Assembly: GCA_038087875.1 (NCBI GenBank)
Contig: CM075987.1
Location: 19,656,001 to 19,720,000 of the forward strand
Reading direction: 5' to 3'
DNA length: 64,000 bases
Source: Malacoraja senta
Lineage: Eukaryota
Notes under the pieces: generated by a model
Told to the model about the DNA's origin: nothing
Databases searched by the model: none
The model's input: the letters and a program-made list of their open reading frames with translations, nothing else
Shown: one piece after another, positions 9,509 to 60,280 of the stretch
Layout: each line of letters opens with the position of its first letter
Position numbering within the stretch: the first letter of the stretch is position 1
Translations under genes and position numbers: made by a program

Positions 9509-11524
9509 TGCAAACTCCAATGGAGAACCCATGAAGTCAAAATCGAACCTCAGCCCCTAACATACATTTAATTAGGTGAAATGTAGTTACTGTTTTAATG
9601 CAGCAAATGTGATACCCAGGAAGCTGCTGGGAACAGTGAGGTCTGGTCACTTGTTTTGGCGATGTTTACGGAGTGACACAATAAACCTGCTCTTTGCAGC
9701 AGTGCATGGAGTCTTTTGTGCCCATCAAGAGGGAAGCACTCAGTTTAATTCATCCAACAAATGGTACCTCCGACAGAGCAGTCCTTCCTCAGTAAAGGCA
9801 TTATGCTCAACCATAGTCAGCCTGAAATACATGCTGATCAGTGGAAAAGGACTCAGTCGCATGACTACCTGGCACTGAAAAACCTGCACATTGGTCGGAG
9901 TCTACAGCGTAATATGAAAATCATATAAAAAGGCAAGGTGAATCAAAGTCGTATTCATTGAGTTTAAAAACCCATGGAAAGTAGGACGAATGGAAGACCT
10001 GAAGGAGGTTCACATTTTTTTTTCTGAACAGTCTCATATTTGTATTCATTAAATATTTTGCTTGTGTAAAATTCTTCCCACAGTTTCGGAGTGAAATCCC
10101 ACTGGTGAAGTCATTATATTACTCACTCTTCCCTCTACTGAATGTTTCTCAGCTGTTTCTTGTTCCACTATACTCAGTGCTAACCTATTTAGGCTGCTTG
10201 ATTTTGTTTTTCCTCCAGGAACGGCAGGTAAATTATGTAACTGGGGACTTCAACTTCCTGTGCTGAGTCCTAGTCCCCATCAGTTAGAATTCAAAAGTGT
10301 TTTTTTAATCAGGGAAACACAATTTCTGGGGGAAAGCAGTAGCTCTTAAATCTGCAGCAGCTTCATTTTCCCCCACAGAGTTCTTGCGTGGAAAAGAGAA
10401 ATCATAATGTCAACCCTTTAATCAACAGGGAACTGATCAGAGAAGGAGGACTTGGTTGTAAACCATGCACGAGACAAATTATGAAATCTCTGTAAGAGGC
10501 AAAATATAATTCATTCCCCCCCCCCCCCCACCCCTCTTCCCCATGCTCTTCGACTGACACACGACAAGCAATTATTATTCATTTTGACTATTCTGAAACT
10601 TTTTATCTCCATCTCAATTCCCCCTTAATCTGTCCCCGTTCAATTAAGTTAGTGCTTGATTTGCGACTCACAGGCATTAAAGAGCCTTTTCTCTGTGCAA
10701 AAATAACTTGGGCTGCTGTCCTGGAAATGCGATTACAGTAGATACATTTAATAAAATGGCAAGCAGTTAGTCCAGTTTATTTTATTGATATTCCGACTAA
10801 CAATATCTGCTAAGTTCTGAAATGGGCAGTTTGTTGGCAACAGGAAAGCTGTCGGTGGGGAATGTGTTTGAGAAAATATTACCATAACGAGTGAGAGAAG
10901 CCTTTCTTAAATCTCGTGTTATTCTATGGCTAGGTATGTGGTTGAATTGTAAGAGATCGAATGAGTAAACACAGGTGATTGTTTATTTATATTGTTGTTG
11001 ATGGCCGCGTTCCAGGTAATCGAGCCAATTTCCTCAGTGCCAAGATTGCTCCTGAACGGACAGTTTGCCAAGGAGTTTCAGTCTGTGCAACAGCTTTGAT
11101 TAATTAGGCTGTAGATTTAGCAGAGTAAGTTCCATCAAGGTTAAATTAATCATTTTCAGTCTACAGCCTTTAACTTCAAAATCACAATTCAAGGAATGAT
11201 ATGGTCAGTCATTCGCCTACCAAAGATCCAAATTCACAAGGCACTGTGCTTAATATGTTGTACTTATTTCTTTGAAAACTGTTGAAATTATTCTAAATTA
11301 GTACCGAAAAACATTGTTGTACCATTGAGATGGCATTGTTTGTGTTTTAAATTTGGTTGAAGTGAGTTTTCTAATATACTGGCATATGTGGATTATATCT
11401 GGAAAATGAAATAAGCGTTGATGTGGGGCAAAAGTTTAGTTGTGTTTGCACATTCATTGATTGATTTTCTGGGAAGTGTAATGGACTGCAGCGTTTAATG
11501 CCTACTTTCCTTATAACTACAAGA

Positions 11525-27489: not shown

Positions 27490-30400
27490 CTATTCAACCT
27501 ATATTTAATATTCAGGAAGGATAGACAGAAAGGAAGAGAAGGTGCGGTGGCATTGCTGGGTAAAGAGGAAATTAATGCAATAGCAAGAGACATTAGCTTG
27601 GATGCTGTAGAATTGGTATGGGTAGAACTGTGAAATAACCAAGGGCAGAAAACATTTGTTGGAGTTGTATACAGACCACCAAACAGTAGTAGGGAGGTTG
27701 GGGATAGCATCAAGCAGGAAATTAGGGATGCGTATAGCAAAGGTACCGCAGTTCTCATGGGTGACTTTAATCTACATATAGATTAGGCCAGCCAAATTTG
27801 TAACAGTGCTGAGGAGGAGGATTTCCTGGAATGTATACGGGATGTTTTTTTAAACCAATATGTAGAATACACGACTAGAGGACAGGCCATCCTAGAATGG
27901 GTATTGTGTAATGAGGAAGGATTAGTTAGCAGTATTGTTGTGCAAAGCCCCTTGGGCAACAGTGACCACAATATAGTGGAATTCTATATTAGGATGGAGA
28001 GTGACACAGTTAATTCAGAGACTAGGGTCCTGAACATAAAGAAAGGAGATTTTGAAGGTATGAGACAGGAATTGGCTAGGATAGACTGGCAAATTATGCT
28101 CAAAGGGTTGACGGTGGAGATGCAATGGCAAAGATTTAAAGACCGCATGGATGAACTCCAAAAATTGTTCATCCAAGTCTGGCGAGAAAAAAAAATGGGG
28201 AAGGTGGCTCAACTGTGGCTAACTGGGGAAATCAAGGATAAGGTACACAAAAATGCTGGACAGGGTCTTGGTGAGACCACACCTGGAGTATTGCGTACAG
28301 TTTTGGTCTCCAAATCTGAGGAAGGACATTATAGCCATAGAGGGAGTGCAGAGAAGGTTCACCAGACTGATTCCTGGGATGTCAGGACTTTCATATGAAG
28401 AAAGACTGGATAGACTCGGCTTATACTCGCTAGAATTTAGGAGATTGAGAGGTGATCTTATAGAAACTTACAAAATTCTTATGGGGTTGGACAGGCTAGA
28501 TGCAGGAAGATTGTTCCTGGTGTTGGGGAAGTCCAGGACAAGGGGTCACAGCTTAAGGATAAGGGGGAAATCCTTTAAGACCGAGATGAGAAAAAACTTT
28601 TTCACACAGAGAGTGGTGAATCTCTGGAACTCTCTGCCACAGAGGGTAGTTGAGGCCAGTTCATTGGCTATATTTAAGAGGGAGTTAGATGTGGCCCTTG
28701 TGGCTAAAGGGATCAGGGGGTATGGAGAGAAGGCAGGTACGGGATACTGAGTTGGATGATCAGCCATGATCATATTAAATGGCGGTGCAGGCTCGAAGGG
28801 CCGAATGGCCTACTCCTGCACCTATTTTCTATGTATCTATGTTTCGGGCCGAGGATAATGTTAAATCCAAGGAAAAATCATTTAAATTGGCCAGAGGAGG
28901 CAGCAAACCAGAGAACTGGGAGAAATTTTCTGGGAGTTCTGTCTTCCCTAAGGAAGACTCAAACAATCTCCCAGAAATACTAGGGGACCGAGGATCTAGT
29001 GGGAGGGACGAACTGAAGGGAATCCACATTAGTCAGGAAATGGTGTTAGGTAAACTGTTGGGACTGAAGGCAGATAAATCCCCAGGGCTTGATGGCCTGC
29101 ATCCCAGAGTACTCAAGGAGGTGGCCATAGAAATCGTGGATGCATTGGTGATCATTTTCCAATGTGCTCTCGACTCTGAATCAGTTCCTGTCGACTGGAG
29201 GGTAGCCAATGTAACCCCACTTTTTAAGAAAGGAGGGAGAGAGAAAACGGGGAATTATAGACCAGTTAGCCTTACATCGGTAGTGGGGAAGATGCTTGAG
29301 TCGATTGTTAAAGATGTTATAGCAGCACATTTGGAAAGCAGTGACAGGATCGGTCAAAGTCAGCATGCTTGATTAATCTTCTGGAATTTGTTCAGGATGT
29401 AACAAGTAGAATGGATAAGGGAGAGCCAGTGGACGTGGTGTATCTAGATTTTCAAAACGCATTTGACAAGGTCCCACACAAGAAATTAGTGTGCAAAATT
29501 AGAGCATATGGTATTGGGGGTTGGGGATTCAAGATTCAAGATTCAAGATTTCCTTTATTGTCATTCAGACCTTTCGGTCTGAACGAAATTGACATGTAAT
29601 ATTGACATGGATAGAGAACTGGTTGGCTGACAGGAAGCAAAGAGTAGGAAGTAATGGGTCCTTTTCAGAATGGCAGTGGAGTACCACAAGGCTGGGACGC
29701 CAGTTGTTTACAATATACATATTAACAATTTAGATGAGGGAATTAAATGTGACATCTCCAAGTTTGCGGATGACACAAAGCTGAGTGGCAGTGTGAGTTG
29801 CGATGAGGATGCTATGAGGCTGCAGGGTGACTTGGATAGGTTGGGTGAGTGGGCAGATGCATGGCAGATGCAGTATAATGTGGATAAATGTGAGGTTATC
29901 CACTTTGGTGGCAAGAACAGGAAGGTAGATTATTATCTGAATGGTGTCAGATTAGGAAAAGGGGAGTTACAACGAGACCAGGGTGTGCTTGTACATCAGT
30001 CACTGAAAGTAAGCATGCAGGTATAGCAGGCAGTGAAGATAGCTAATGGCATGTTGGCCTTCATTGAGAGAGGATTTGAGTTTAGGAACAAGGAGGTCCT
30101 ACTACAGTTGTACAGGGCCCTGGTGAGACTGCATCTGGAGTATTGTGTGCAATTTTGGTCTCCTAATTTGAGGACGGACATTATTGCTATTGAGGGAGTG
30201 CAGCGTAGGTTCACCAGGTTAATAACCGGGATGGCGGGACTGACATATGATGAAAGAATGGGTCAACTGGGCTTGTATTCACTGGAATTTAGAAGGATGA
30301 GAAGGGATCTTATAGAAACATATAAAATTCTTAAAGGATTGGACAGACTAGATGCAGGTAAAATGTTCCCGATGTTGGAGGAGTCCAGAACCAGGGTTCA

Positions 30401-30671
30401 CAGTTTAAGAATAAGGCCATTTAGGACTGAGATGAGAACAAAAATTTTCACCCAGAGTGTTGTGAATCTGTGGAATTCTCTGCCACAGAAGGCAGTGGAG
30501 GCCAATTCACTGGATGTTTTCAAGAGAGAATTAGATGTAGCTGTTAGGGCTAAAGGAATCAAGGGATATGGGGAAAAAATAGGAACGGGGTACTGATTTT
30601 AGATGATGAGCCGTGATCATATTGAATGGCGGTGCTGGCCTACTCCTGCAACTCTTTTTCTATGTTTCTAT
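27490..30671 (+). mobile_element. CR1 LINE ORF2 pseudogene (APE + RT), internally deleted, with nested inserts
   Basis: YRPP/GDFN, LGNSDH, KSPGLDGLHPRVLKE, NYRPVSLTS, YLDFQNAFDKV, SKFADDTKL and HLEYCVQFWSP in successive frames; CR1 tail at the end. Confidence 0.92.
28261..28843 (+). mobile_element. Second, younger CR1 3' fragment nested in the larger CR1
   Basis: Uninterrupted frame 28253-28750 (LVRPHLEYCVQFWSP..GYGEKAGTGY) plus 3' UTR and tail, interrupting the host CR1 linker region. Confidence 0.88.
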
Positions 30672-34774: not shown

Positions 34775-37700
34775 TTAACCTGGATCATCTTCCGTTATTC
34801 CGAAGATAATCCATTCTGCTTTGGGTATCAGTCTTGTTTTAAATAACTTTGTAAAGATTTCAAAAATTTCATTCCAAAATTTTTGAATTTTTGTACAGAA
34901 GACAAATGAGTGCGCTATAGTTGCTTCTTGGGATTGACATTTATCACAAATAGATGATACGTTTGGGAAAATTTTATGAATTTTAGTTTTCGAATAATAT
35001 AATCTATGTAAAATTTTAAATTGTATTAAAGTGTGTCTTACATTAATCGAGCATTTATGCACATTTAATAAGTATTCATTCCAACTTTCCTTTGAAATTT
35101 TAATAGCTAACTCTTGTTCCCAGTCTCTTCTGATACCCTCCGTAGGTGGTATTTGTACATTTAAAATAATATTATACAAATATGATATTAAGTTTGCTGA
35201 TTCCGCTTTTATCTGCATTGCCTCGTCCAATACATCTACTGGATTATTATAATGATCTTTTGTATATTTTTTCAAATAGTCGCATATTTGAAAATATTTA
35301 AAATATTGATTATTTCCGAGTTTATATTTTATTTGTAATTGTTGAAATGAAAGTAATTTTCCAGTTTCATACAAGTCACCAAGCGTTTTAATTCCTAGTC
35401 TATCCCATTGTGTATAAGCTTTATCTATAATAGAAGGACTAAACGAAGGGTTATTGACTATAGGTAATAAAAGTGATAAGTTTCTTAATTTTAAATTTTG
35501 TTTTATTTGTTTCCAAATACGGATTGTACTATGAATAATTGGGTTCTTATTATAGTTTATGTTATTCAGTTTCATTGGAGAGAGGAGGATCGCTCCAATG
35601 TTTCTAGAGGAGCAATCCTCTTTCTCCATTACAATCCAGTCTACTTGCTGGGCGGAGTTATCCATCAGTTGAATCATGTTTTTAATATTTACTGACCAAT
35701 AATAATACATAAAATTAGGTAGTGCTAGACCCCCCAATACTTTAGGTTTATTCAGATGGGTTTTTTGTATTCTATGTGATTTATAGTCCCATATAAAATT
35801 AGTGATATCTGAGTCGAGTTTTTTTAAAAACTTCTTAGGTAAGTATATAGGAATTGATTGAAATAGGTATAAAATTTGTGGTAAAAAGATCATTTTTATT
35901 GCGTTTATTCGGCCTATTAAAGACATCGGGAGCGTTTTCCAGAATTTAATTAATGTATTCAGTTTATTAAGTAGGGGGTCAAAATTTGCCCTGAACATAC
36001 CTTGATATGTTCTGGTAATTTCGATTCCCAAATATTTAAATTTTTCTGTAGCTATTTTAAAAGGGAATTTTAAAAGATGTGTTGAATCTTTCGGTTTTAT
36101 TGACATAATTTCACTTTTATTCCAATTTATTCTATATCCAGAAAAAGATCCGAAGTCTTCAATTAAATTTAATATATTTGGTATAGTGATTTGAGGTTTT
36201 GTAATATACAGTAATATATCATCCGCGTATAAAGATATTTTATTATATGAGTCTTTAGTATTATATCCATGAATATCAGGGTGTATTCTAATTTTTTCTG
36301 CTAGCGGTTCAATAATGAGAGCAAACAGCTGTGGTGATAATGAGCATCCTTGTCTATTTCCCCTTGATAGTTGAAATTTCGGGGATAATATGTTATTAGT
36401 AAGTATTCTAGCTGTAGGTTTGTTATATAGTAACTTAATCCATAAAATAAAATTCTCTCCCAGTTGAAATTTTTGTAATACTTTATCCATATAATTCCAT
36501 TCTACTTGATCAAATGCTTTTTCAGCATCCAGCGAAATAATTGATAATTCTTGATCTTCAGATTTGTGTGAGTGCATTATGTTGAGTAGACGTCTCATAT
36601 AATTAGAAGAGTATCTCTTAGGGATCAACCCTGTCTGATCTGGGTTTATTAATTTACTAATGTATTTACTTAATCTTCTAGCTAATGTTTTCGCTAATAT
36701 TTTTTGATCTGTGTTTAACAATGCTATAGCTCTATATGAGCCAGGTTCTTCTAAATCTTTATTTTTCTTAGGTATTAATGTAATCGTTGATTCCGCTAAT
36801 GTATCAGGTAGTATTCGTTTTTTAAAAGCGTATTGGTACATTTTTTGTAATCTTGGTATTATTTTATCATAAAAGCTTTTATAAAATTCATTAGTAAATC
36901 CATCAGGGCCTGGTGTTTTTCCATTTTTTAATGAGTTTATTGTATCTTCTAATTCCTTAATTGAGATTTGTGCACCCAGTTCCTCTTGTTCCTTCAGCTC
37001 TAACTTTGGAAGATTACAGGTATCCAAGAACTTTGTGATATTATTGGAATCCATTATCGTTTTAGATGTATACAAATTCTCGTAAAATTGCGCAAATCTT
37101 TTATTAATATCCTTCGGTGTTGTTAATAATTCCCCTTTATCTGATTTGATCTTTGGTATAGTATGTTCCTTTTCTCGTTTTTTTAGCTGGCGAGCCAAAA
37201 GTTTATGCGGTTTATCCCCAAATTCAAAGTGCTCTTGTTTTGTAATTTGAAAAAGTCTTATAAGTTTGGCAGATAATAATTTATTTAATTTAAATTTTAA
37301 AATTATTATTTTATTATGTTGATCTATTGATGGATCTTTAGCATTATCTATATCCATTTGTCTAATAAGTTCTTCTAACTGTCTTTGTTCATTCTTATTC
37401 TTTTTATTTTGAAAAGCTTGATATGAAATTATAATACCCCTAATGTATGCTTTAAAAGATTCCCAAAGTAAAGTAGGCGATATATCTGAAGTATCATTTG
37501 TTTGAAAAAAGACCTCCATTTGTTCTTTTAAATATATACTCGCTTGTGGATCTTTTAAAATTTGACAGTTAAATCTCCAGAATGATTTATTCTTAGACAA
37601 TCCTTCCAGTTTTAAAAAGAAAGTTAGTGGAGAATGGTCTGAAATTGAGTTTGTATGGTATATTGCATTAGATGTTTGGGGGATTAATTTTGTATCCAGC

Positions 37701-38350
37701 AGAAAGTAGTCTATACGTGAGTATGTCTTATGTACCATTGAGTAAAACGAATATTCCCTGCCAGTTGGATTCACAATTCTCCAAACATCTGCTATATTAG
37801 TGTTATTTATATAGGTATTGAGGAGTTCCCCAGTTTTCGATTTCATATTCCCTCTCTGTTTTTGACTTGATTTATCTAAGTACGGATCTAAAACACAGTT
37901 AAAGTCTCCGCCTATTATAACATTTTGATAGTTTGACTCTGCAATTATATTGAAGATTTTATTGAAAAAGTGGGGGTTATCAAAGTTAGGGGCATATATA
38001 TTTACCAAAGTAAGTGGAGTGTCATGGATTTCTCCATTAACTATTAGGTATCTCCCTTCTATATCTGTTATAATATTCTTTGCTTTAAATGGTATACCTT
38101 TTCTTATGATAATTGACGTGCCTCTAGATTTTGAAGTAAATGAAGAGTGGTATGTTTGACCTATCCATTTCGCCCTCAGCCTAACTTGATCCTGAGGTTT
38201 TAGGTGTGTTTCTTGTAAGAAGGTAATGTCAGAATTATACATTTTTAGCTGAGCTAATATCTTACCCCTTTTTATAGGTTCGTTAATACCTCTTATATTC
38301 CAACTACAAAATGAGATTCCTCCTAGGTTCTTTTGTGTGGTGTCATGCAT
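34775..38350 (-). CDS. L1 ORF2p (APE endonuclease, reverse transcriptase, CCHC motif), C-terminally truncated
   Basis: 1191-aa ORF with SWNIRG, LQETH, GGDFN, SRIDY, SDH, PGPDG, SLDAEKAFD, GNRQG, YADD, KYLG and CDKC-x8-H-x4-C. The expected last 60 codons lie in another frame (34596-34778). Confidence 0.95.
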   Translation of the reverse strand: MHDTTQKNLGGISFCSWNIRGINEPIKRGKILAQLKMYNSDITFLQETHLKPQDQVRLRAKWIGQTYHSSFTSKSRGTSIIIRKGIPFKAKNIITDIEGRYLIVNGEIHDTPLTLVNIYAPNFDNPHFFNKIFNIIAESNYQNVIIGGDFNCVLDPYLDKSSQKQRGNMKSKTGELLNTYINNTNIADVWRIVNPTGREYSFYSMVHKTYSRIDYFLLDTKLIPQTSNAIYHTNSISDHSPLTFFLKLEGLSKNKSFWRFNCQILKDPQASIYLKEQMEVFFQTNDTSDISPTLLWESFKAYIRGIIISYQAFQNKKNKNEQRQLEELIRQMDIDNAKDPSIDQHNKIIILKFKLNKLLSAKLIRLFQITKQEHFEFGDKPHKLLARQLKKREKEHTIPKIKSDKGELLTTPKDINKRFAQFYENLYTSKTIMDSNNITKFLDTCNLPKLELKEQEELGAQISIKELEDTINSLKNGKTPGPDGFTNEFYKSFYDKIIPRLQKMYQYAFKKRILPDTLAESTITLIPKKNKDLEEPGSYRAIALLNTDQKILAKTLARRLSKYISKLINPDQTGLIPKRYSSNYMRRLLNIMHSHKSEDQELSIISLDAEKAFDQVEWNYMDKVLQKFQLGENFILWIKLLYNKPTARILTNNILSPKFQLSRGNRQGCSLSPQLFALIIEPLAEKIRIHPDIHGYNTKDSYNKISLYADDILLYITKPQITIPNILNLIEDFGSFSGYRINWNKSEIMSIKPKDSTHLLKFPFKIATEKFKYLGIEITRTYQGMFRANFDPLLNKLNTLIKFWKTLPMSLIGRINAIKMIFLPQILYLFQSIPIYLPKKFLKKLDSDITNFIWDYKSHRIQKTHLNKPKVLGGLALPNFMYYYWSVNIKNMIQLMDNSAQQVDWIVMEKEDCSSRNIGAILLSPMKLNNINYNKNPIIHSTIRIWKQIKQNLKLRNLSLLLPIVNNPSFSPSIIDKAYTQWDRLGIKTLGDLYETGKLLSFQQLQIKYKLGNNQYFKYFQICDYLKKYTKDHYNNPVDVLDEAMQIKAESANLISYLYNIILNVQIPPTEGIRRDWEQELAIKISKESWNEYLLNVHKCSINVRHTLIQFKILHRLYYSKTKIHKIFPNVSSICDKCQSQEATIAHSFVFCTKIQKFWNEIFEIFTKLFKTRLIPKAEWIIFGITEDDPG

Positions 38351-39141: not shown

Positions 39142-40212
39142 TTATTTCTGTTTTTCAACGATCGTTTGGGCATATTTGAATGCGTCTTCAGGCTTAACAA
39201 ATGACTTTTCAAGACCATTAAAGGAAATACGCATTTTCGCGGGATAAAAAATCCCAAATCTGACCCCTTCTCTCCCTCTTAAAAGATCTTTAACCTTATC
39301 AAATTTGTTTCTTTTTTGCACAATTTCATACGGGTAGTCCCTGAATATCTTAATAGTGTCCTTGTCCAGCCGCAATTGTACACCATATTTGATTTTACTC
39401 ATAACATATTCCAGTTCTGCAGTATCTCGAAATTTCACTATAATATGTCGTGGATAAGCTTTTCCCGCACCAGATCTTTTTCCAAATCTTGGGACACGAT
39501 GAGCCACTTCGATTTTCGGTTCCTTGGAAAGATTCAACAGTTGTTTCAACAAGCCCATGGCAAATTCACGTACCTGTTCCCCTTCTGCCCCCTCTGAAAC
39601 ACCAAGAATTCTCAAATTCTGGCGTCTAGAGCGAGCTTCCAGGTCCAGGCATTTGACTGAGACTTTCTCTAATTGAGTCCCCATTTGTAGTGACGCTTGT
39701 TCGTTTTCTCGCCTCATTTGCTCATGTTCTTGCCTCAATTTCGCCATGTCTTCAACCAGTCGAGCCGTGTTTTTCTCCAATTCCGTAATTGTGTGCATAC
39801 TTGCAGCTACTGTTTCAAGTACAGCCGTGAACTTATCCGTAGTAATTACATCCATCTTATCCATTTTCTCTGATAGTCCATCTTTCACCTCATCAATTCG
39901 TTTATTCATAATGTCCAGTAAATCCGTCATATTCTTCTGGTTACCAGCATTTAAATCCTTCATCATCTTCTCCATTCCTTCCATCATTTTTGCCGAATTT
40001 TCCTTCATTTCCTTCTTATCTTCCACCCTATTATCCGAGATCTCATCTTTCAAATTTTTTATTGATTTCTTCAAGTCATCAAAGTCTTTCTTAGATCTTG
40101 TATCCATTTCTGCAGCCACTTCAGAGACTTCAGAGGTAACTTCTGCTTCAGACTTTTTCGACAGCTTATTCACTGTTCTCTGAGGGCTCACAGCTGGAGG
40201 CAATTTACTCAT
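39142..40212 (-). CDS. L1 ORF1p (coiled coil + RRM + CTD)
   Basis: 356-aa ORF: heptad-rich N-terminal half, DLEARSRRQNLRILGVSEG, IEVAHRV, PRHIIVKF, IFRDYP, FYPAKMRI. Confidence 0.93.
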   Translation of the reverse strand: MSKLPPAVSPQRTVNKLSKKSEAEVTSEVSEVAAEMDTRSKKDFDDLKKSIKNLKDEISDNRVEDKKEMKENSAKMMEGMEKMMKDLNAGNQKNMTDLLDIMNKRIDEVKDGLSEKMDKMDVITTDKFTAVLETVAASMHTITELEKNTARLVEDMAKLRQEHEQMRRENEQASLQMGTQLEKVSVKCLDLEARSRRQNLRILGVSEGAEGEQVREFAMGLLKQLLNLSKEPKIEVAHRVPRFGKRSGAGKAYPRHIIVKFRDTAELEYVMSKIKYGVQLRLDKDTIKIFRDYPYEIVQKRNKFDKVKDLLRGREGVRFGIFYPAKMRISFNGLEKSFVKPEDAFKYAQTIVEKQK

Positions 40213-57905: not shown

Positions 57906-59149
57906 CATTCAATCATGGCTGATCTTTCTTTCCTCTCAACCCCATTCTAATGCATTCTCCCCATAACCGTTGACACCCTTACTGATCAGGAATCTGTCAA
58001 TCTCCACCTTAAAATTACCCAATGACTTGGCCTCCACTGCTTTGTGGCAAAGAATTCCACCGATTCACCACCATCTGACTAAAGAAATCCCTCCTCATCT
58101 CCCTTGTAAATCCTGCTTTAAGGACCAGTATGTGAGCTTCCCCTTATTATTTAAAATTTATCAACAAATGGAATCTTCATTTTGTTTCTTCTCTTGATCT
58201 TCTGCAGATTTCCTGCCCCAAGAGTTACTTCAGTGGATGTTCAAGAAAGTAAAGATTGAGAACTGTCTGTACGGAGTTTGTATGTTCTCCCCGTGACCTG
58301 CGTGGGTTTTCTCTGAGATCGTCGGTTTCCTCCACACTCCAAAGATGTACAGGTTTGTAGGTAAATTGGCTTGGTAAAATTGTCCCCAGAGTGGTGTAGG
58401 ATAGTGTTAATGTGTGGGGATCACTGGTCGGCGCGGACCCGATGGGCCAAAGGGCCTGTTTCCACGCTGTATCTCTAAACTAAACAAAAAAAAGATAAGT
58501 GAGTGCGATTTAGAAGAGATCACGGTAACAGAGTGGTTTAGAATTTTACAGCTCTCTGTGGCAGTACAGGGATGCTGTGCCATGACATGTGAGATGTTTC
58601 ACCCAGAGTATTGGTATTGGATTATTATTGTCACATTGTACAGTGAAAAGCATTTTCTTTGTGTGCTATCCAATTGGAACAGATTATATTATTCATGAGC
58701 ATGATCAAGCAATACACTAGTGCAACAGGTAATGCAAAGAGACAAATACTGGAGCGCGGAATACAGTTTCATAGCCTTGTAGCAGTACAGTAAAAATACA
58801 TTGTCCTCCCAACACTTCTACATTGTCCTCTCCTCCCAGTGACCTGATCCTGTCTGCTTGAACTCGGGAATGCTCAGAATAGCTCTCATGATCCCCTGCC
58901 CATCACAGGTCCTTCATGTGACATTCCCTTGTTTAGATAGTATGTGAAGGACTGTTTTCAGAAAATGATTAGAAAAGACCAAAGATTGCTCTGTTTCCTA
59001 CGTTGCCTTCATCAGGTGTTTGAACATTTCTGCTCTGAAAGTGAGAGGTCTCAGTCCAATATCAACTACTTTATAGGGCATTTCTCTGGGTCCCATAGGC
59101 TCCCTGTGATATTTAAGTTTTTAACGGGCTTTCATCTCAGAGTGCAGAG

Positions 59150-59346
59150 ATCTTCATCTTCTTATCAATCTTCATCTTCTTATCGAGTCCACACACAAGA
59201 TTAGAAGTTGTTCAGCCAGAGCTGAACACACTTCTCGGCATCTGCATACAATGGTGTCTGTCTTGCGCTTCTTGTGCTTCTTGTGCGTGGTGGTGGAAAG
59301 ATTGGTGGAAACAGGGCCGCAACGTGAACGCTCTTTCCTTGACCCC
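59150..59346 (-). mobile_element. Second short retroposon with 5' HDV-like ribozyme, structured body and GAAGA-rich tandem tail
   Basis: The minus strand starts GGGGTC. 12-bp stem CCACGCACAAGA/TCTTGTGTGTGG enclosing a GTTCAGC/GCTGAAC hairpin. Tail is GATAAGAAGATGAAGAT twice. No clear TSD. Confidence 0.7.
59295..59346 (-). ncRNA. Minimal HDV/CPEB3-like self-cleaving ribozyme motif
   Basis: P1 GGGGUC/GGCCCU (6 bp, first G-U); P2 GGAAAGA/UCUUUCC; P3 GCG/UGC; L3 UUCACGU; tiny P4 (U-UUCC-A); J4/2 CCAA. Confidence 0.78.
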
Positions 59347-60280
59347 AGATTACGGAGATTACAGTCATTAAAATAGTATTATTCCATTTTGCAGTGCCCC
59401 GCTCCTTTCTTTCAGGTCCATCTGCCGGATACTAACATTAATTGTGTTTCAAAAAACTCTACTAAAACTTGACACTTTTGGGCAAAGTTATACTTTTACA
59501 TGAACCTTGCGCAATTTTGACTCGCAATATCTTCTGTTGAAAGCAGCATTTTGTTCTGATCGTTGGCCATTCCAGCTTTGAGGGTTCTCTCTGCATCTTC
59601 AATCCTCTTAAGTTAGAGAATAATAACTCACACTTATATAGCGCCTGAAGAAGATGAAAATATCCTAACACCCTGGGGGTATTTTCACCTAAATTCAATA
59701 CTGTGTCACCAAAGGAAATCTTCGAATAGATCATGGAAAGCTTGTTCTGAATTCTAGGCTCAAAGAAGCTCTTACAAATAGGGTGGAGAGGTCTGAGGTG
59801 GGAATTCTCAGAACTTGAGGGCTTGGCAACTGACGGCAAGAACTTGGATGTACAAGTGTTCTGAGTCGGAGGAGTACTGAGATTTAGAAGGGTTGTATAG
59901 CTGGAGGAAGTTAGAGAAATGTGGATGGTACAAGGATATAACCCAAAGATATAACTTGGTATGCCAGCAAGTGCAATGCTGTTGACACTCAGTGCCAGTG
60001 TTCAAATCACCATTCAGATTGGGACCAGTGTTGCTTTTAATTGTCACAGATTACTGATATCACAGCCAAAAAGATTGTCCAACAAAAATTTCTTGGGGCT
60101 GAAGGTGGAACTACAAAGTTTATTTTTAACTACTCCAGAAATAGCACTGTTTTGGAAAAGTAATAAAAATGGTAGGGCAGTCAGTTAATGCAATCTCTGT
60201 TTGGGGTTATGTCTGATTTAACATTTCAGGAAATGATGTCAAAGGAGGTAGTAAGCCACAATGGATGCAGACTATTACTA

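What the first reader, a model, noticed from the sequence alone, without database searches (positions are those of the whole stretch)
59150..59346. Ribozyme-headed SINE whose HDV-like core closely resembles the mammalian CPEB3 ribozyme
Seen: the minus strand reads GGGGUC AA GGAAAGA GCG UUCACGU UGC GGCCCU GU UUCC A CCAA UCUUUCC. This parses without gaps as P1-P2-P3-L3-P3'-P1'-P4-J4/2-P2'. A 12-bp stem, an inner hairpin and a GAAGA-rich tandem tail follow. Established: HDV-like ribozymes cleave just 5' of the G-U wobble opening P1 and process the 5' ends of R2, RTE and L1Tc retrotransposons. As I recall it, the CPEB3 ribozyme core reads GCGUUCACGUCGC(A/G)GCCCCUGU, versus GCGUUCACGUUGCGGCCCUGU here; this needs checking. 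Inference: a ~200-nt non-autonomous retroposon that lacks a Pol III head and cuts itself out of read-through transcripts. It could be a lead on a retroelement origin for CPEB3-type ribozymes. I do not know of such a family described from this lineage. P1 has 6 bp rather than the usual 7.
Basis: partly seen in the sequence, partly recalled or inferred. Interest (0 to 1): 0.88.

Follow-up and report, generated by a model that had tools for sequence, protein, structure and literature searches.

The report
Retroposon headed by CPEB3-like ribozyme
A short mobile element with about 1,800 copies in a cartilaginous-fish genome begins with a stripped-down version of the self-cutting RNA known from the mammalian CPEB3 gene, and fuller versions on related elements in the same genome hint at where that mammalian ribozyme came from.

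Summary
Window 59346 to about 59151 (minus strand) is one copy of a young, roughly 175-nt non-autonomous retroposon. The genome holds 1,772 matches to its 52-nt head (reversed-pattern control 0). Copies start at the same G, and 16 of 30 loci carry 11-14-bp target-site duplications (control 0 of 578). The head folds as P1-P2-P3 of an HDV-like ribozyme and is of the CPEB3 type. The window copy scores 24 bits against Rfam CPEB3 (cut-off 35); sister copies score 35-44.

The same genome, an elasmobranch by mitochondrial COX1, has a 3.1-kb RTE-like LINE. Its 5' end is a complete CPEB3-type ribozyme (57-64 bits), and its last 18 nt match the SINE tail at 16 of 18. Three rare repeat families also carry this head; one copy is 52/61 identical to the mammalian consensus. 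Helix covariation across the families is strong.

Self-cleavage is not shown. Poly(A) RNA reads mostly run uncut across the predicted site. This is a new variant of a known kind, and a real lead on a retroelement origin of the CPEB3 ribozyme.

The parts
59341..59346 (-). P1 5' strand (GGGGUC). G1 at 59346 is the element's first base and the predicted cleavage product's 5' end.
   Evidence: shared 5' end, TSDs abut it; P1 87.8% of cells paired, 2 of 7 pairs with changes on both sides.
59332..59338 (-). P2 5' strand (GGAAAGA), after J1/2 AA at 59339-59340.
   Evidence: P2 is 94% paired and 4 of 7 pairs change on both sides between families.
59319..59331 (-). P3 (GCG / UGC) enclosing L3 UUCACGU. 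U at 59321 is a minority variant of the family's C.
   Evidence: identical to the CPEB3 consensus apart from U26; table 3 (about 98% of DNA depth has C).
59313..59318 (-). P1 3' strand (GGCCCU).
59302..59312 (-). J1/4 GU (59311-59312), a 5-nt linker UUCCA in place of P4 (59306-59310), and J4/2 CCAA (59302-59305) with the candidate catalytic C at 59305.
   Evidence: the C aligns with the C of GCGAAU in all full-length heads. No P4 columns are present in the 6 E rows.
59295..59301 (-). P2 3' strand (UCUUUCC), the end of the 52-nt ribozyme head.
59189..59294 (-). Family-specific body: ACCACC linker, a 12-bp closing stem (59279-59290 with 59189-59200), and an inner 14-bp hairpin (59203-59235).
   Evidence: -41 kcal/mol, z -4.23. 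Unrelated to the LINE.
59151..59190 (-). LINE-like 3' end GGACUCGAUAAGAAGA plus tail. In this copy a 17-18-nt unit is duplicated in tandem (second copy about 59150-59167).
   Evidence: 16 of 18 identical to the LINE's last 18 nt; the other 29 loci have a GAUAAGAAG(AAG)n tail.
59347..59359 (-). Possible decayed target-site duplication (atctccgtaatct), with its partner atctctgcactct at about 59139-59151. 10 of 13 bases match.
   Evidence: Read by eye. It did not pass the TSD script's criterion, so it is only a suggestion.

Best explanation
This is one copy of a young, high-copy, SINE-like non-autonomous retroposon of a cartilaginous fish. It has no Pol III head. Its first 52 nt are a minimal, P4-less HDV-like ribozyme of the CPEB3 sequence type. 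Its last ~18 nt plus the (GAA)n tail imitate the 3' end of a 3.1-kb RTE-like LINE in the same genome, and that LINE carries the complete version of the same ribozyme at its own 5' end.

Proposed mechanism:
1. Copies are co-transcribed inside longer Pol II transcripts (shown: reads in poly(A) RNA run from the element into its flanks).
2. The head of a competent source copy folds into P1/P2/P3 and cleaves just 5' of G1 (inferred).
3. The LINE's endonuclease/reverse transcriptase recognises the shared 3' end and copies the RNA by target-primed reverse transcription up to G1 (inferred).
4. This gives insertions with an exact common 5' end and 11-14-bp target-site duplications (shown).
For: Retroposon status. 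There are 2,062 first-look candidates, and 40 of 40 scored are 95-100% identical. The head has 1,772 matches against 0 for the control, and the first 100 listed are exact. Upstream flanks are unrelated in 30 loci. TSDs of 11-14 nt ending at the base before G1 occur in 16 of 30 loci, against 0 of 578 for shuffled pairings.

Head. RF00622 gives 24 bits locally on the window copy and 35-44 bits on sister copies. The alignment of 19 heads is 90% paired, against 39-47% when partners are slid. 14 pairs change on both sides, against 1-5 when slid. In P2, 4 of 7 pairs are compensated, and three of those distinguish the SINE from the LINE. The J4/2 C aligns with the C of the full ribozymes. P4-less HDV-like ribozymes are an established class (PMC10879173, passage seen).

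Partner. The LINE is 3.14 kb with one 940-aa ORF carrying Exo_endo_phos and RVT_1. It has TSDs and a (GAA)n tail, and its head scores 57-64 bits. The SINE shares 36 nt of head at 83% and 16 of 18 terminal nt with it, and nothing in between. Two LINE relatives from metagenomes also carry HDV-like heads upstream of the ORF.

No tRNA and no A or B boxes were found.
Against: No cleavage assay has been done. In a poly(A) RNA-seq run (X24, about 6% of the run read, 222 reads laid), at least 84 reads carry loose ends running past 59346-59348 into unlike flanks. No position shows a pile of read starts. Dispersed copies in steady-state poly(A) RNA are therefore mostly uncut.

The head lacks P4, and P1 has only 6 bp, two of them wobbles. 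The best nested fold of the head is a competing GGAAA/UUUCC hairpin at -10.6 kcal/mol, against -9.5 for P1+P3 (-7.9 in the window copy). The LINE head's best nested fold, by contrast, is the ribozyme fold.

The window copy itself is below Rfam's cut-off. A rarer variant (25 matches) has GGCCCCU opposite only four G's, which gives G1-C instead of G1.U and is unexplained. The LINE-SINE partnership rests on 18 nt. The RTE clade assignment rests on architecture only; no phylogeny was made.
Confidence: 0.62

Rival explanations
1. The head is a catalytically weak or dead relic of the LINE's ribozyme. On this reading it is kept because the folded 5' pseudoknot is recognised by the LINE protein or protects the 5' end. 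The exact 5' end would come from a few master loci whose transcripts happen to start at G1.
For: P4 is lost, P1 is short and has wobbles, and a competing hairpin exists. Most poly(A) reads cross the site uncut, with no pile of starts. R2 protein binding to its own 5' pseudoknot RNA is a precedent (recalled knowledge, also touched on in the passage of PMC8256844 seen).
Against: P2 keeps perfect pairing through three double changes relative to the LINE head. That argues for selection on the full pseudoknot, although such selection would also fit a binding role. The J4/2 C-N-A-A and L3 are kept. At least two sequence variants of the head are amplified: UUUCC versus UUUUC at about 13% of depth (59308), and the 4-C variant. 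This suggests more than one source. No upstream sequence is shared among the 30 loci.
Confidence: 0.27
2. It is an ordinary Pol III SINE, or another small-RNA-derived repeat, whose 5' end only happens to look like a ribozyme.
For: None found. Only weak sub-threshold snoRNA-like Rfam hits in the tail (9-11 bits, E 4-8).
Against: ARAGORN finds no tRNA. There is no A or B box even in loose form. The Rfam CPEB3 model scores sister copies above its cut-off. The head is homologous to that of a LINE and shows helix covariation.
Confidence: 0.03
3. The likeness to the mammalian CPEB3 ribozyme is convergence within the HDV fold and not common descent.
For: Reviews state that HDV-like ribozymes share few invariant nucleotides and may have arisen more than once (PMC8256844, passage seen). 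The helices of the LINE head and the SINE head differ in sequence from CPEB3.
Against: By hand count, one family-C copy (L046) is identical to the Rfam mammalian consensus at 52 of 61 positions, including the freely variable P2 and P4 strands. L044 matches at 52 of 67 and the LINE head at 47 of 65. HDV-like heads of related LINEs from metagenomes gave no RF00622 match at E<=1 in 11 loci and matched RF02682 instead. In 14 control genomes, 0 matches were over the cut-off.
Confidence: 0.2

Closest known systems
Mammalian CPEB3 ribozyme (Rfam RF00622)
   Same: Same fold. L3 (UUCACGU), P3, J1/4 GU and the 3' side of P1 are identical. The window copy matches 26 of 34 consensus positions locally. Sister families in this genome score up to 64 bits (cut-off 35) and reach 52/61 identity.
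   Different: The mammalian ribozyme is a single conserved copy in a CPEB3 intron. This one is dispersed in more than 1,700 copies as the 5' end of a retroposon in a cartilaginous fish. It has no P4 and a 6-bp P1. No copy of the most similar family lies on a contig with a CPEB ZZ-domain exon.
HDV-like ribozymes at the 5' ends of RTE, baggins, R2 and L1Tc non-LTR retrotransposons (Ruminski et al. 2011; Eickbush & Eickbush 2010; Sanchez-Luque et al. 2011)
   Same: The ribozyme sits at the very 5' end, so cleavage would free the element from a co-transcript while the catalytic core stays on the element. The partner LINE here has the RTE-like build.
   Different: Those heads are of other sequence types. 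Metagenome relatives of this LINE match the F. prausnitzii-type HDV model and not CPEB3. The host here is a vertebrate. I saw those papers only through reviews (PMC6765202, PMC8256844), because Ruminski 2011 and Webb 2009 are not held.
NARTc of Trypanosoma cruzi and R2-derived SIDEs (non-autonomous elements that keep the LINE's ribozyme head)
   Same: A non-autonomous element with the LINE's 5' ribozyme and the LINE's 3' recognition end (abstracts of PMC3383444 and PMC3414825 seen).
   Different: Those are internal-deletion derivatives of their LINE. Here the 110-nt body is unrelated to the LINE, the head has lost P4, and the copy number (1,772) is about 177 times that of intact LINE heads (10).
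Minimal HDV-like ribozymes (drz-Mtgn, theta ribozymes of gut phages)
   Same: They lack the P4 domain yet belong to the HDV-like class (PMC10879173, passage seen).
   Different: They are phage or metagenome RNAs next to tRNA genes, with unrelated sequence and no retroposon context.
Schistosome Sm-alpha SINE with hammerhead ribozyme
   Same: A SINE-like element that carries a self-cleaving ribozyme (PMC6765202, passage seen).
   Different: It uses a hammerhead and not the HDV fold, is transcribed by Pol III, and processes tandem multimers.

Membership tests
HDV-like self-cleaving ribozymes | Nested double pseudoknot: P1 crossing P2, with P3 inside. | tested here: met
   P1 87.8%, P2 94.0% and P3 91.2% of cells paired. 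7 of these 17 pairs change on both sides. Slid controls are 39-47% paired.
HDV-like self-cleaving ribozymes | P4 helix between J1/4 and J4/2. | tested here: not met
   all 6 SINE rows have a 5-nt linker where the other 13 rows have P4. 'Minimal' members of the class also lack P4 (PMC10879173).
HDV-like self-cleaving ribozymes | Catalytic cytosine in J4/2 followed by N-A-A, and a G.U wobble closing P1 at the cleavage site. | tested here: met
   CCAA aligns with CGAA of the full heads, and G1.U34 is present in the major form. The rarer 4-C variant has G1-C. The C-N-R-A rule itself is recalled.
HDV-like self-cleaving ribozymes | Mg2+-dependent self-cleavage 5' of G1. | not testable with these tools
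   Indirect only. The shared 5' end lies at the predicted site. Poly(A) RNA reads show no cut.
CPEB3 ribozyme family (Rfam RF00622) | Score at or above the curated gathering cut-off (35 bits). | tested here: inconclusive
   The window copy gives no match at gathering and 24 bits locally. Sister copies score 35.0-43.7 bits and LINE heads 57-64 bits. 39 of 60 listed matches are over the cut-off.
CPEB3 ribozyme family (Rfam RF00622) | A single conserved locus in an intron of the CPEB3 gene of mammals. | tested here: not met
   The host is an elasmobranch by COX1. The copies are dispersed. CPEB ZZ-domain exons lie on other contigs than the five family-C copies.
SINE in the strict sense | Internal Pol III promoter in a tRNA-, 7SL- or 5S-derived head. 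| tested here: not met
   No tRNA, no A or B box, and no such Rfam match.
Non-autonomous non-LTR retroposon dependent on a LINE | No coding capacity, target-site duplications, a 3' end shared with an autonomous LINE, and many dispersed copies. | tested here: met
   (16/18 nt plus a (GAA)n tail; LINE with one 940-aa open reading frame in L061; the three other copies fetched are broken).
RTE clade of non-LTR retrotransposons (for the partner LINE) | About 3.2 kb, a single ORF with N-terminal AP-type endonuclease and RT, a short 3' UTR with a simple-repeat tail, and placement in the RTE clade by RT phylogeny. | tested here: inconclusive
   The architecture fits. No phylogeny with named RTE references was possible.

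The most novel reading that the evidence does not exclude
The mammalian CPEB3 ribozyme is a domesticated retroposon head. On this reading it descends from the CPEB3-type ribozyme lineage that still serves as the 5' end of an RTE-like LINE, of its roughly 1,800-copy SINE, and of older repeats in cartilaginous fishes. These sequences would then be the outgroups that mammal-only studies lacked. The SINE would also show that a vertebrate retroposon can run on a 52-nt, P4-less version of the ribozyme.
Probability: 0.5. Interest if true: 0.85.

Novelty: new variant of a known kind. Interest (0 to 1): 0.8.

Why it matters
The origin of the CPEB3 ribozyme is an open question. Bendixsen et al. [quoted passage not shown]

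Here a non-mammalian vertebrate genome holds dozens to thousands of sequences that Rfam's mammalian CPEB3 model accepts. They sit where HDV-like ribozymes of retrotransposons sit, and one is 85% identical to the mammalian consensus. That makes a retroelement origin directly testable by comparative genomics.

The SINE head would also be the first P4-less HDV-like ribozyme I can find tied to a eukaryotic mobile element. It offers a natural minimal CPEB3-type core for biochemistry.

Tried and rejected
- Rfam at the gathering threshold on the whole window: 0 matches.
- Earlier findings of this scan: nothing by place, words or sequence.
- RNA evidence for cleavage: one lay was allowed. The X17 seawater RNA run gave a single 34-nt contig piece in the tail and says nothing. 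X1 and X18 are contigs and cannot show RNA ends.
- Pol III origin: no tRNA and no A or B boxes.
- Orthology of the most CPEB3-like family with the CPEB3 gene: rejected, because CPEB ZZ-domain exons lie on other contigs.
- TSDs for families B, C and D: 0 of 10 copies, so their retroposon nature is unproven.
- CPEB3-type heads on metagenome relatives of the LINE: 0 of 11 loci. Two carry another HDV type.
- CPEB3-type core motif in viral contigs: 0.
- Papers not held: Ruminski 2011, Webb 2009, Webb & Luptak 2011. One literature search was badly designed and useless.
- Dfam, Repbase and Rfam full-hit lists are not available here.

Full report
**1. What is at the coordinates.** Numbering the RNA from G1 at window 59346, the parts are:
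- P1: 1-6 with 29-34 (GGGGUC/GGCCCU, 6 bp including G1.U34 and U5.G30)
- J1/2: AA
- P2: 9-15 with 46-52 (GGAAAGA/UCUUUCC)
- P3: 16-18 with 26-28
- L3: UUCACGU
- J1/4: GU
- then UUCCA, then CCAA

UUCCA cannot form a hairpin, so there is no P4.

The element ends in GGACUCGAUAAGAAGA plus a tail that, in this copy only, is duplicated in tandem.

**2. More than chance, and a repeat family.**
- Rfam at its curated thresholds finds nothing in the window.
- With permissive settings on 321 nt, the best hit by E-value is the mammalian CPEB3 ribozyme RF00622: 24.0 bits, E 2.7e-4, model positions 13-46 of 78, window 59313-59346. The three other hits at E<=10 were weak snoRNA-like matches (9-11 bits, E 4-8).
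- The genome the window comes from has 1.94 Gb in 6,182 contigs. A search with the 197 nt gave 2,062 first-look candidates. All 40 that were scored are 95-100% identical, 37 starting at query base 1 and 3 at base 2.
- The 52-nt majority head has 864 + 908 = 1,772 matches at 3 or fewer mismatches, against 0 for the reversed pattern. The first 100 listed are exact.
- The window holds just this one copy.

**3. It is a retroposon with an exact 5' end.** In 30 fetched loci the upstream flanks are unrelated right up to the first G. Three pairs among the 30 (L003/L027, L012/L014, L025/L026) share flanks, so they are duplicates of three loci.

A script looked for a repeat of the bases just before G1 behind the tail. 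It found 11-14-nt duplications (1 or fewer mismatches) in 16 of 30 loci, and 6-7-nt ones in 3 more. With flanks paired at random it found 0 of 578. Several of the 11 'misses' show decayed duplications by eye.

Element length is 170-178 nt and the family tail is GAUAAGAAG(AAG)n. The window copy failed the script's criterion. By eye it has a 10-of-13 match.

There is no tRNA-like part and no Pol III A or B box, even in loose form. It is therefore not a SINE in the strict sense but a SINE-like, LINE-dependent retroposon.

**4. Private features of the window copy.** Laying a DNA run on the window shows that about 98% of the depth at 59321 reads the complement of C, not U (987,777 of 1,007,625, table 3). 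The family's P3 is therefore GCG/CGC, as in CPEB3. The window's U26 is a CpG-decay variant that turns one pair into G.U.

**5. The host.** The assembly's mitochondrial COX1 has its best named hits in an angel shark (95%) and a requiem shark (94%), ahead of bony fishes at 93% or less. The genome is that of a cartilaginous fish of the shark-and-ray group. I did not go further.

**6. The same ribozyme, complete, on a LINE and on other repeats.** Searching the whole genome with RF00622 gave 102,231 loose candidates. Only 59 were scored, and 39 of the 60 listed matches reach the curated 35-bit cut-off, the best at 64.2 bits. The same search over 14 control prokaryote genomes gave 0 over the cut-off. 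The 30 fetched loci fall into five groups.

- **Group A** (12 loci, 44-64 bits; the intact heads 52.8-64.2) is the 5' end of a 3.14-kb element.
  - The head is a 73-nt ribozyme with a 7-bp P1, P2, P3, the same L3, an 8-bp P4 and J4/2 CGAA. An ORF follows.
  - Four copies fetched in full are 97.4-98.2% identical. One has an open 940-aa frame with Exo_endo_phos and RVT_1 domains; the other three are broken.
  - They end in ...GACACGAAAAGAAG(AAG)n, and three of the four show TSDs that abut G1.
  - Size, single ORF and tail are RTE-like. I could not make a phylogeny.
  - Homologues at 46-63% identity occur across animals, including amphioxus, sea urchins, insects, crabs, fishes and a lizard.
  - Only 10 intact heads of this LINE exist at 3 or fewer mismatches.
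- **Groups B, C and D** are rare and old. They have 6, 4 and 8 copies including the query, at 79-95% identity. Each is a full-length CPEB3-type ribozyme followed by 30-45 nt ending in ...CUGUAA(A) or ...CUGAA. I found no TSDs in 10 copies, so what they are is open.
- **Group E** is the SINE.

**7. Link between SINE and LINE.** The SINE and the LINE share 36 nt of head (83%) and the last 18 nt (16 of 18), and nothing in between. The SINE thus combines the LINE's two ends around an unrelated structured body. That is what is expected of an element parasitising that LINE's machinery. That this particular LINE is the driver is an inference.

**8. Structure is under selection.** I aligned 19 genomic heads: 4 A, 3 B, 3 C, 3 D and 6 E including the window.

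I left out 5'-truncated or rearranged copies (L032, L041, L046, L047, L049, L050, L055, L073, L075, L081, L082) and three further A copies (L031, L036, L038). Of the E copies I used 3 of the 30 young ones, including the window's own, together with L057 from the Rfam search and 3 of the 5 four-C copies.

| Measure | Proposed pairing | Slid controls |
|---|---|---|
| Cells forming standard pairs | 90.0% of 411 | 39-47% |
| Pairs with changes on both sides | 14 of 25 | 1-5 |
| Covariation score | 0.345 | 0.097 or less |

Column shuffles reached the observed cells-paired value in 0 of 500 trials and the count of doubly changed pairs in 7 of 500. The pseudoknot helix P2 has 4 of 7 doubly changed pairs. 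Three of them separate the SINE (GGAAAGA/UCUUUCC) from the LINE (GGUAGAA/UUCUACC). The SINE's P2 has therefore been rebuilt by compensating changes, which a decaying relic would not show. The related rows are not independent, so these are counts and not probabilities.

**9. How CPEB3-like?** These identities are hand counts on the cmscan blocks.

| Sequence | Identity to the mammalian consensus |
|---|---|
| LINE head (L033) | 47 of 65 aligned positions |
| SINE majority head (L057) | 33 of 45 |
| Group C copy L044 | 52 of 67 |
| Group C copy L046 (5'-truncated) | 52 of 61 (85%) |

The L046 match includes the P2 and P4 strands, which are free to vary in this fold. HDV-like ribozymes in general share very few fixed nucleotides (PMC8256844, passage seen).

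As a specificity control I fetched relatives of the LINE protein from metagenome contigs. In the 11 loci that include the ORF start, no RF00622 match appeared at E<=1. Two of them carry an HDV-like motif just upstream of the ORF that resembles the F. prausnitzii-type model instead (39.9 and 30.9 bits, below its cut-off of 44). So HDV-like heads are usual for this LINE group, but the CPEB3 sequence type is not generic. None of the five group-C copies is on a contig with a CPEB ZZ-domain exon, so they are not orthologues of the mammalian intron locus.

**10. Does the SINE head cut?** This was not shown.

For:
- The common 5' end lies exactly at the predicted cleavage site in a family with more than one amplified head variant. 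UUUUC in place of UUUCC makes up about 13% of depth (59308). A variant with GGCCCCU has 25 matches.
- The J4/2 C-N-A-A, L3 and J1/4 are kept, and P2 is compensated.
- P4-less HDV-like ribozymes are an accepted class (PMC10879173).

Against:
- In a poly(A) RNA-seq run of a coded organism, 222 reads lay on the element, mostly 90-99% alike and so from other copies or a relative. 216 of them ran on into unlike flanks.
- At least 84 reads crossed 59346-59348 uncut, while depth just inside was about 100.
- No position showed a pile of read starts. Reads came from both strands, as expected for passive co-transcription.
- The head's best nested fold is a competitor hairpin (GGAAA with UUUCC) at -10.6 kcal/mol, against -9.5 for P1+P3. 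For the LINE head the best nested fold is the ribozyme fold.

Only about 6% of one poly(A) library was read. Source copies may also differ from the bulk, so this weakens the cleavage step without excluding it.

**11. What is known.** HDV-like ribozymes at the 5' ends of R2, RTE/baggins and L1Tc, and non-autonomous derivatives (NARTc, R2 SIDEs), are established (PMC6765202 and PMC8256844 passages; abstracts of PMC3383444 and PMC3414825). The kind is therefore known.

What I could not find in print:
- a CPEB3-type ribozyme outside mammals
- such elements in cartilaginous fishes
- a P4-less HDV-like ribozyme on a eukaryotic retroposon

The searches were 'CPEB3-like' + ribozyme (1 paper, unrelated), HDV-like + RTE + vertebrate, self-cleaving + ribozyme + shark, and 'CPEB3 ribozyme' + fish. 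[quoted passage not shown]

Caveats: the key primary papers (Webb 2009, Ruminski 2011, Webb & Luptak 2011) are not held. No supplements were read. Dfam, Repbase and Rfam's full hit lists are out of reach.

**12. Verdict.** The reading as a ribozyme-headed retroposon with a CPEB3-type core is supported as far as sequence can take it. Catalysis is open and the one in-vivo look was negative. The wider finding is a LINE, its SINE and older repeats that all carry CPEB3-type ribozymes in a cartilaginous fish. This is the more important result, because it makes a retroelement origin of the mammalian ribozyme testable.

Noticed in passing
L061:99-3233 (own genome C1), also L062-L064: A 3.14-kb RTE-like LINE with a complete CPEB3-type ribozyme head (57-64 bits on RF00622). 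Its 940-aa EN+RT ORF is open in L061 and broken in the three other copies fetched. It has a (GAA)n tail, and TSDs in 3 of the 4 copies fetched whole. Only 10 intact heads exist in the genome.
   Followed up: yes
L068-L085 (own genome; families B, C, D): Rare, old repeats of about 95-120 nt (6, 4 and 8 copies). Each is a full CPEB3-type ribozyme followed by 30-45 nt ending in CUGUAA(A) or CUGAA, which recalls L2-type tails (recalled, not tested). Family C is 78-85% identical to the mammalian CPEB3 consensus. No TSDs were found in 10 copies.
   Followed up: partly
L051, L053, L058, L059, L060 and 25 genome matches: A rarer, more diverged SINE variant has GGCCCCU opposite only four 5' G's. P1 would then open with G-C instead of G.U unless a fifth G is missing from the copies. 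All 5 fetched copies have T just before the G's. This is unexplained.
   Followed up: partly
L012 and L014 (duplicates of one locus): Six extra G's stand between the target-site duplication and G1 of the SINE, as if untemplated or slipped bases had been added at the 5' junction.
   Followed up: no
L094:359-423 and L088:2722-2786 (metagenome contigs): LINE relatives at about 50% protein identity carry an HDV-like motif of another sequence type just upstream of the ORF. They score 39.9 and 30.9 bits on RF02682, below its cut-off of 44.
   Followed up: partly
window 34775-38350 (-) and 39142-40212 (-): An apparently intact L1-like LINE. It has a 1,191-aa ORF with Exo_endo_phos, RVT_1 and a sub-threshold match to zf-RVT (21.2 bits, cut-off 27.5), preceded by a 356-aa coiled-coil-looking ORF.
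   Followed up: partly
window 27904-30596 (+): Several 164-197-aa ORFs sharing the motif LEYCVQFWSP... look like pieces of CR1/L2-type LINE reverse-transcriptase C-termini. That assignment is from memory; Pfam found nothing at E<=0.001 for the two tested.
   Followed up: partly
own genome contig C2915 (COX1 at 10356, 27079, 43802, 60525) and C6182: The mitochondrial genome is present as at least four tandem units at 16,723-bp spacing on one contig, as well as on a separate contig. This is probably an assembly artefact of a circular molecule.
   Followed up: no
window (whole): The window holds 400 N's, and its G+C content is 41%.
   Followed up: no
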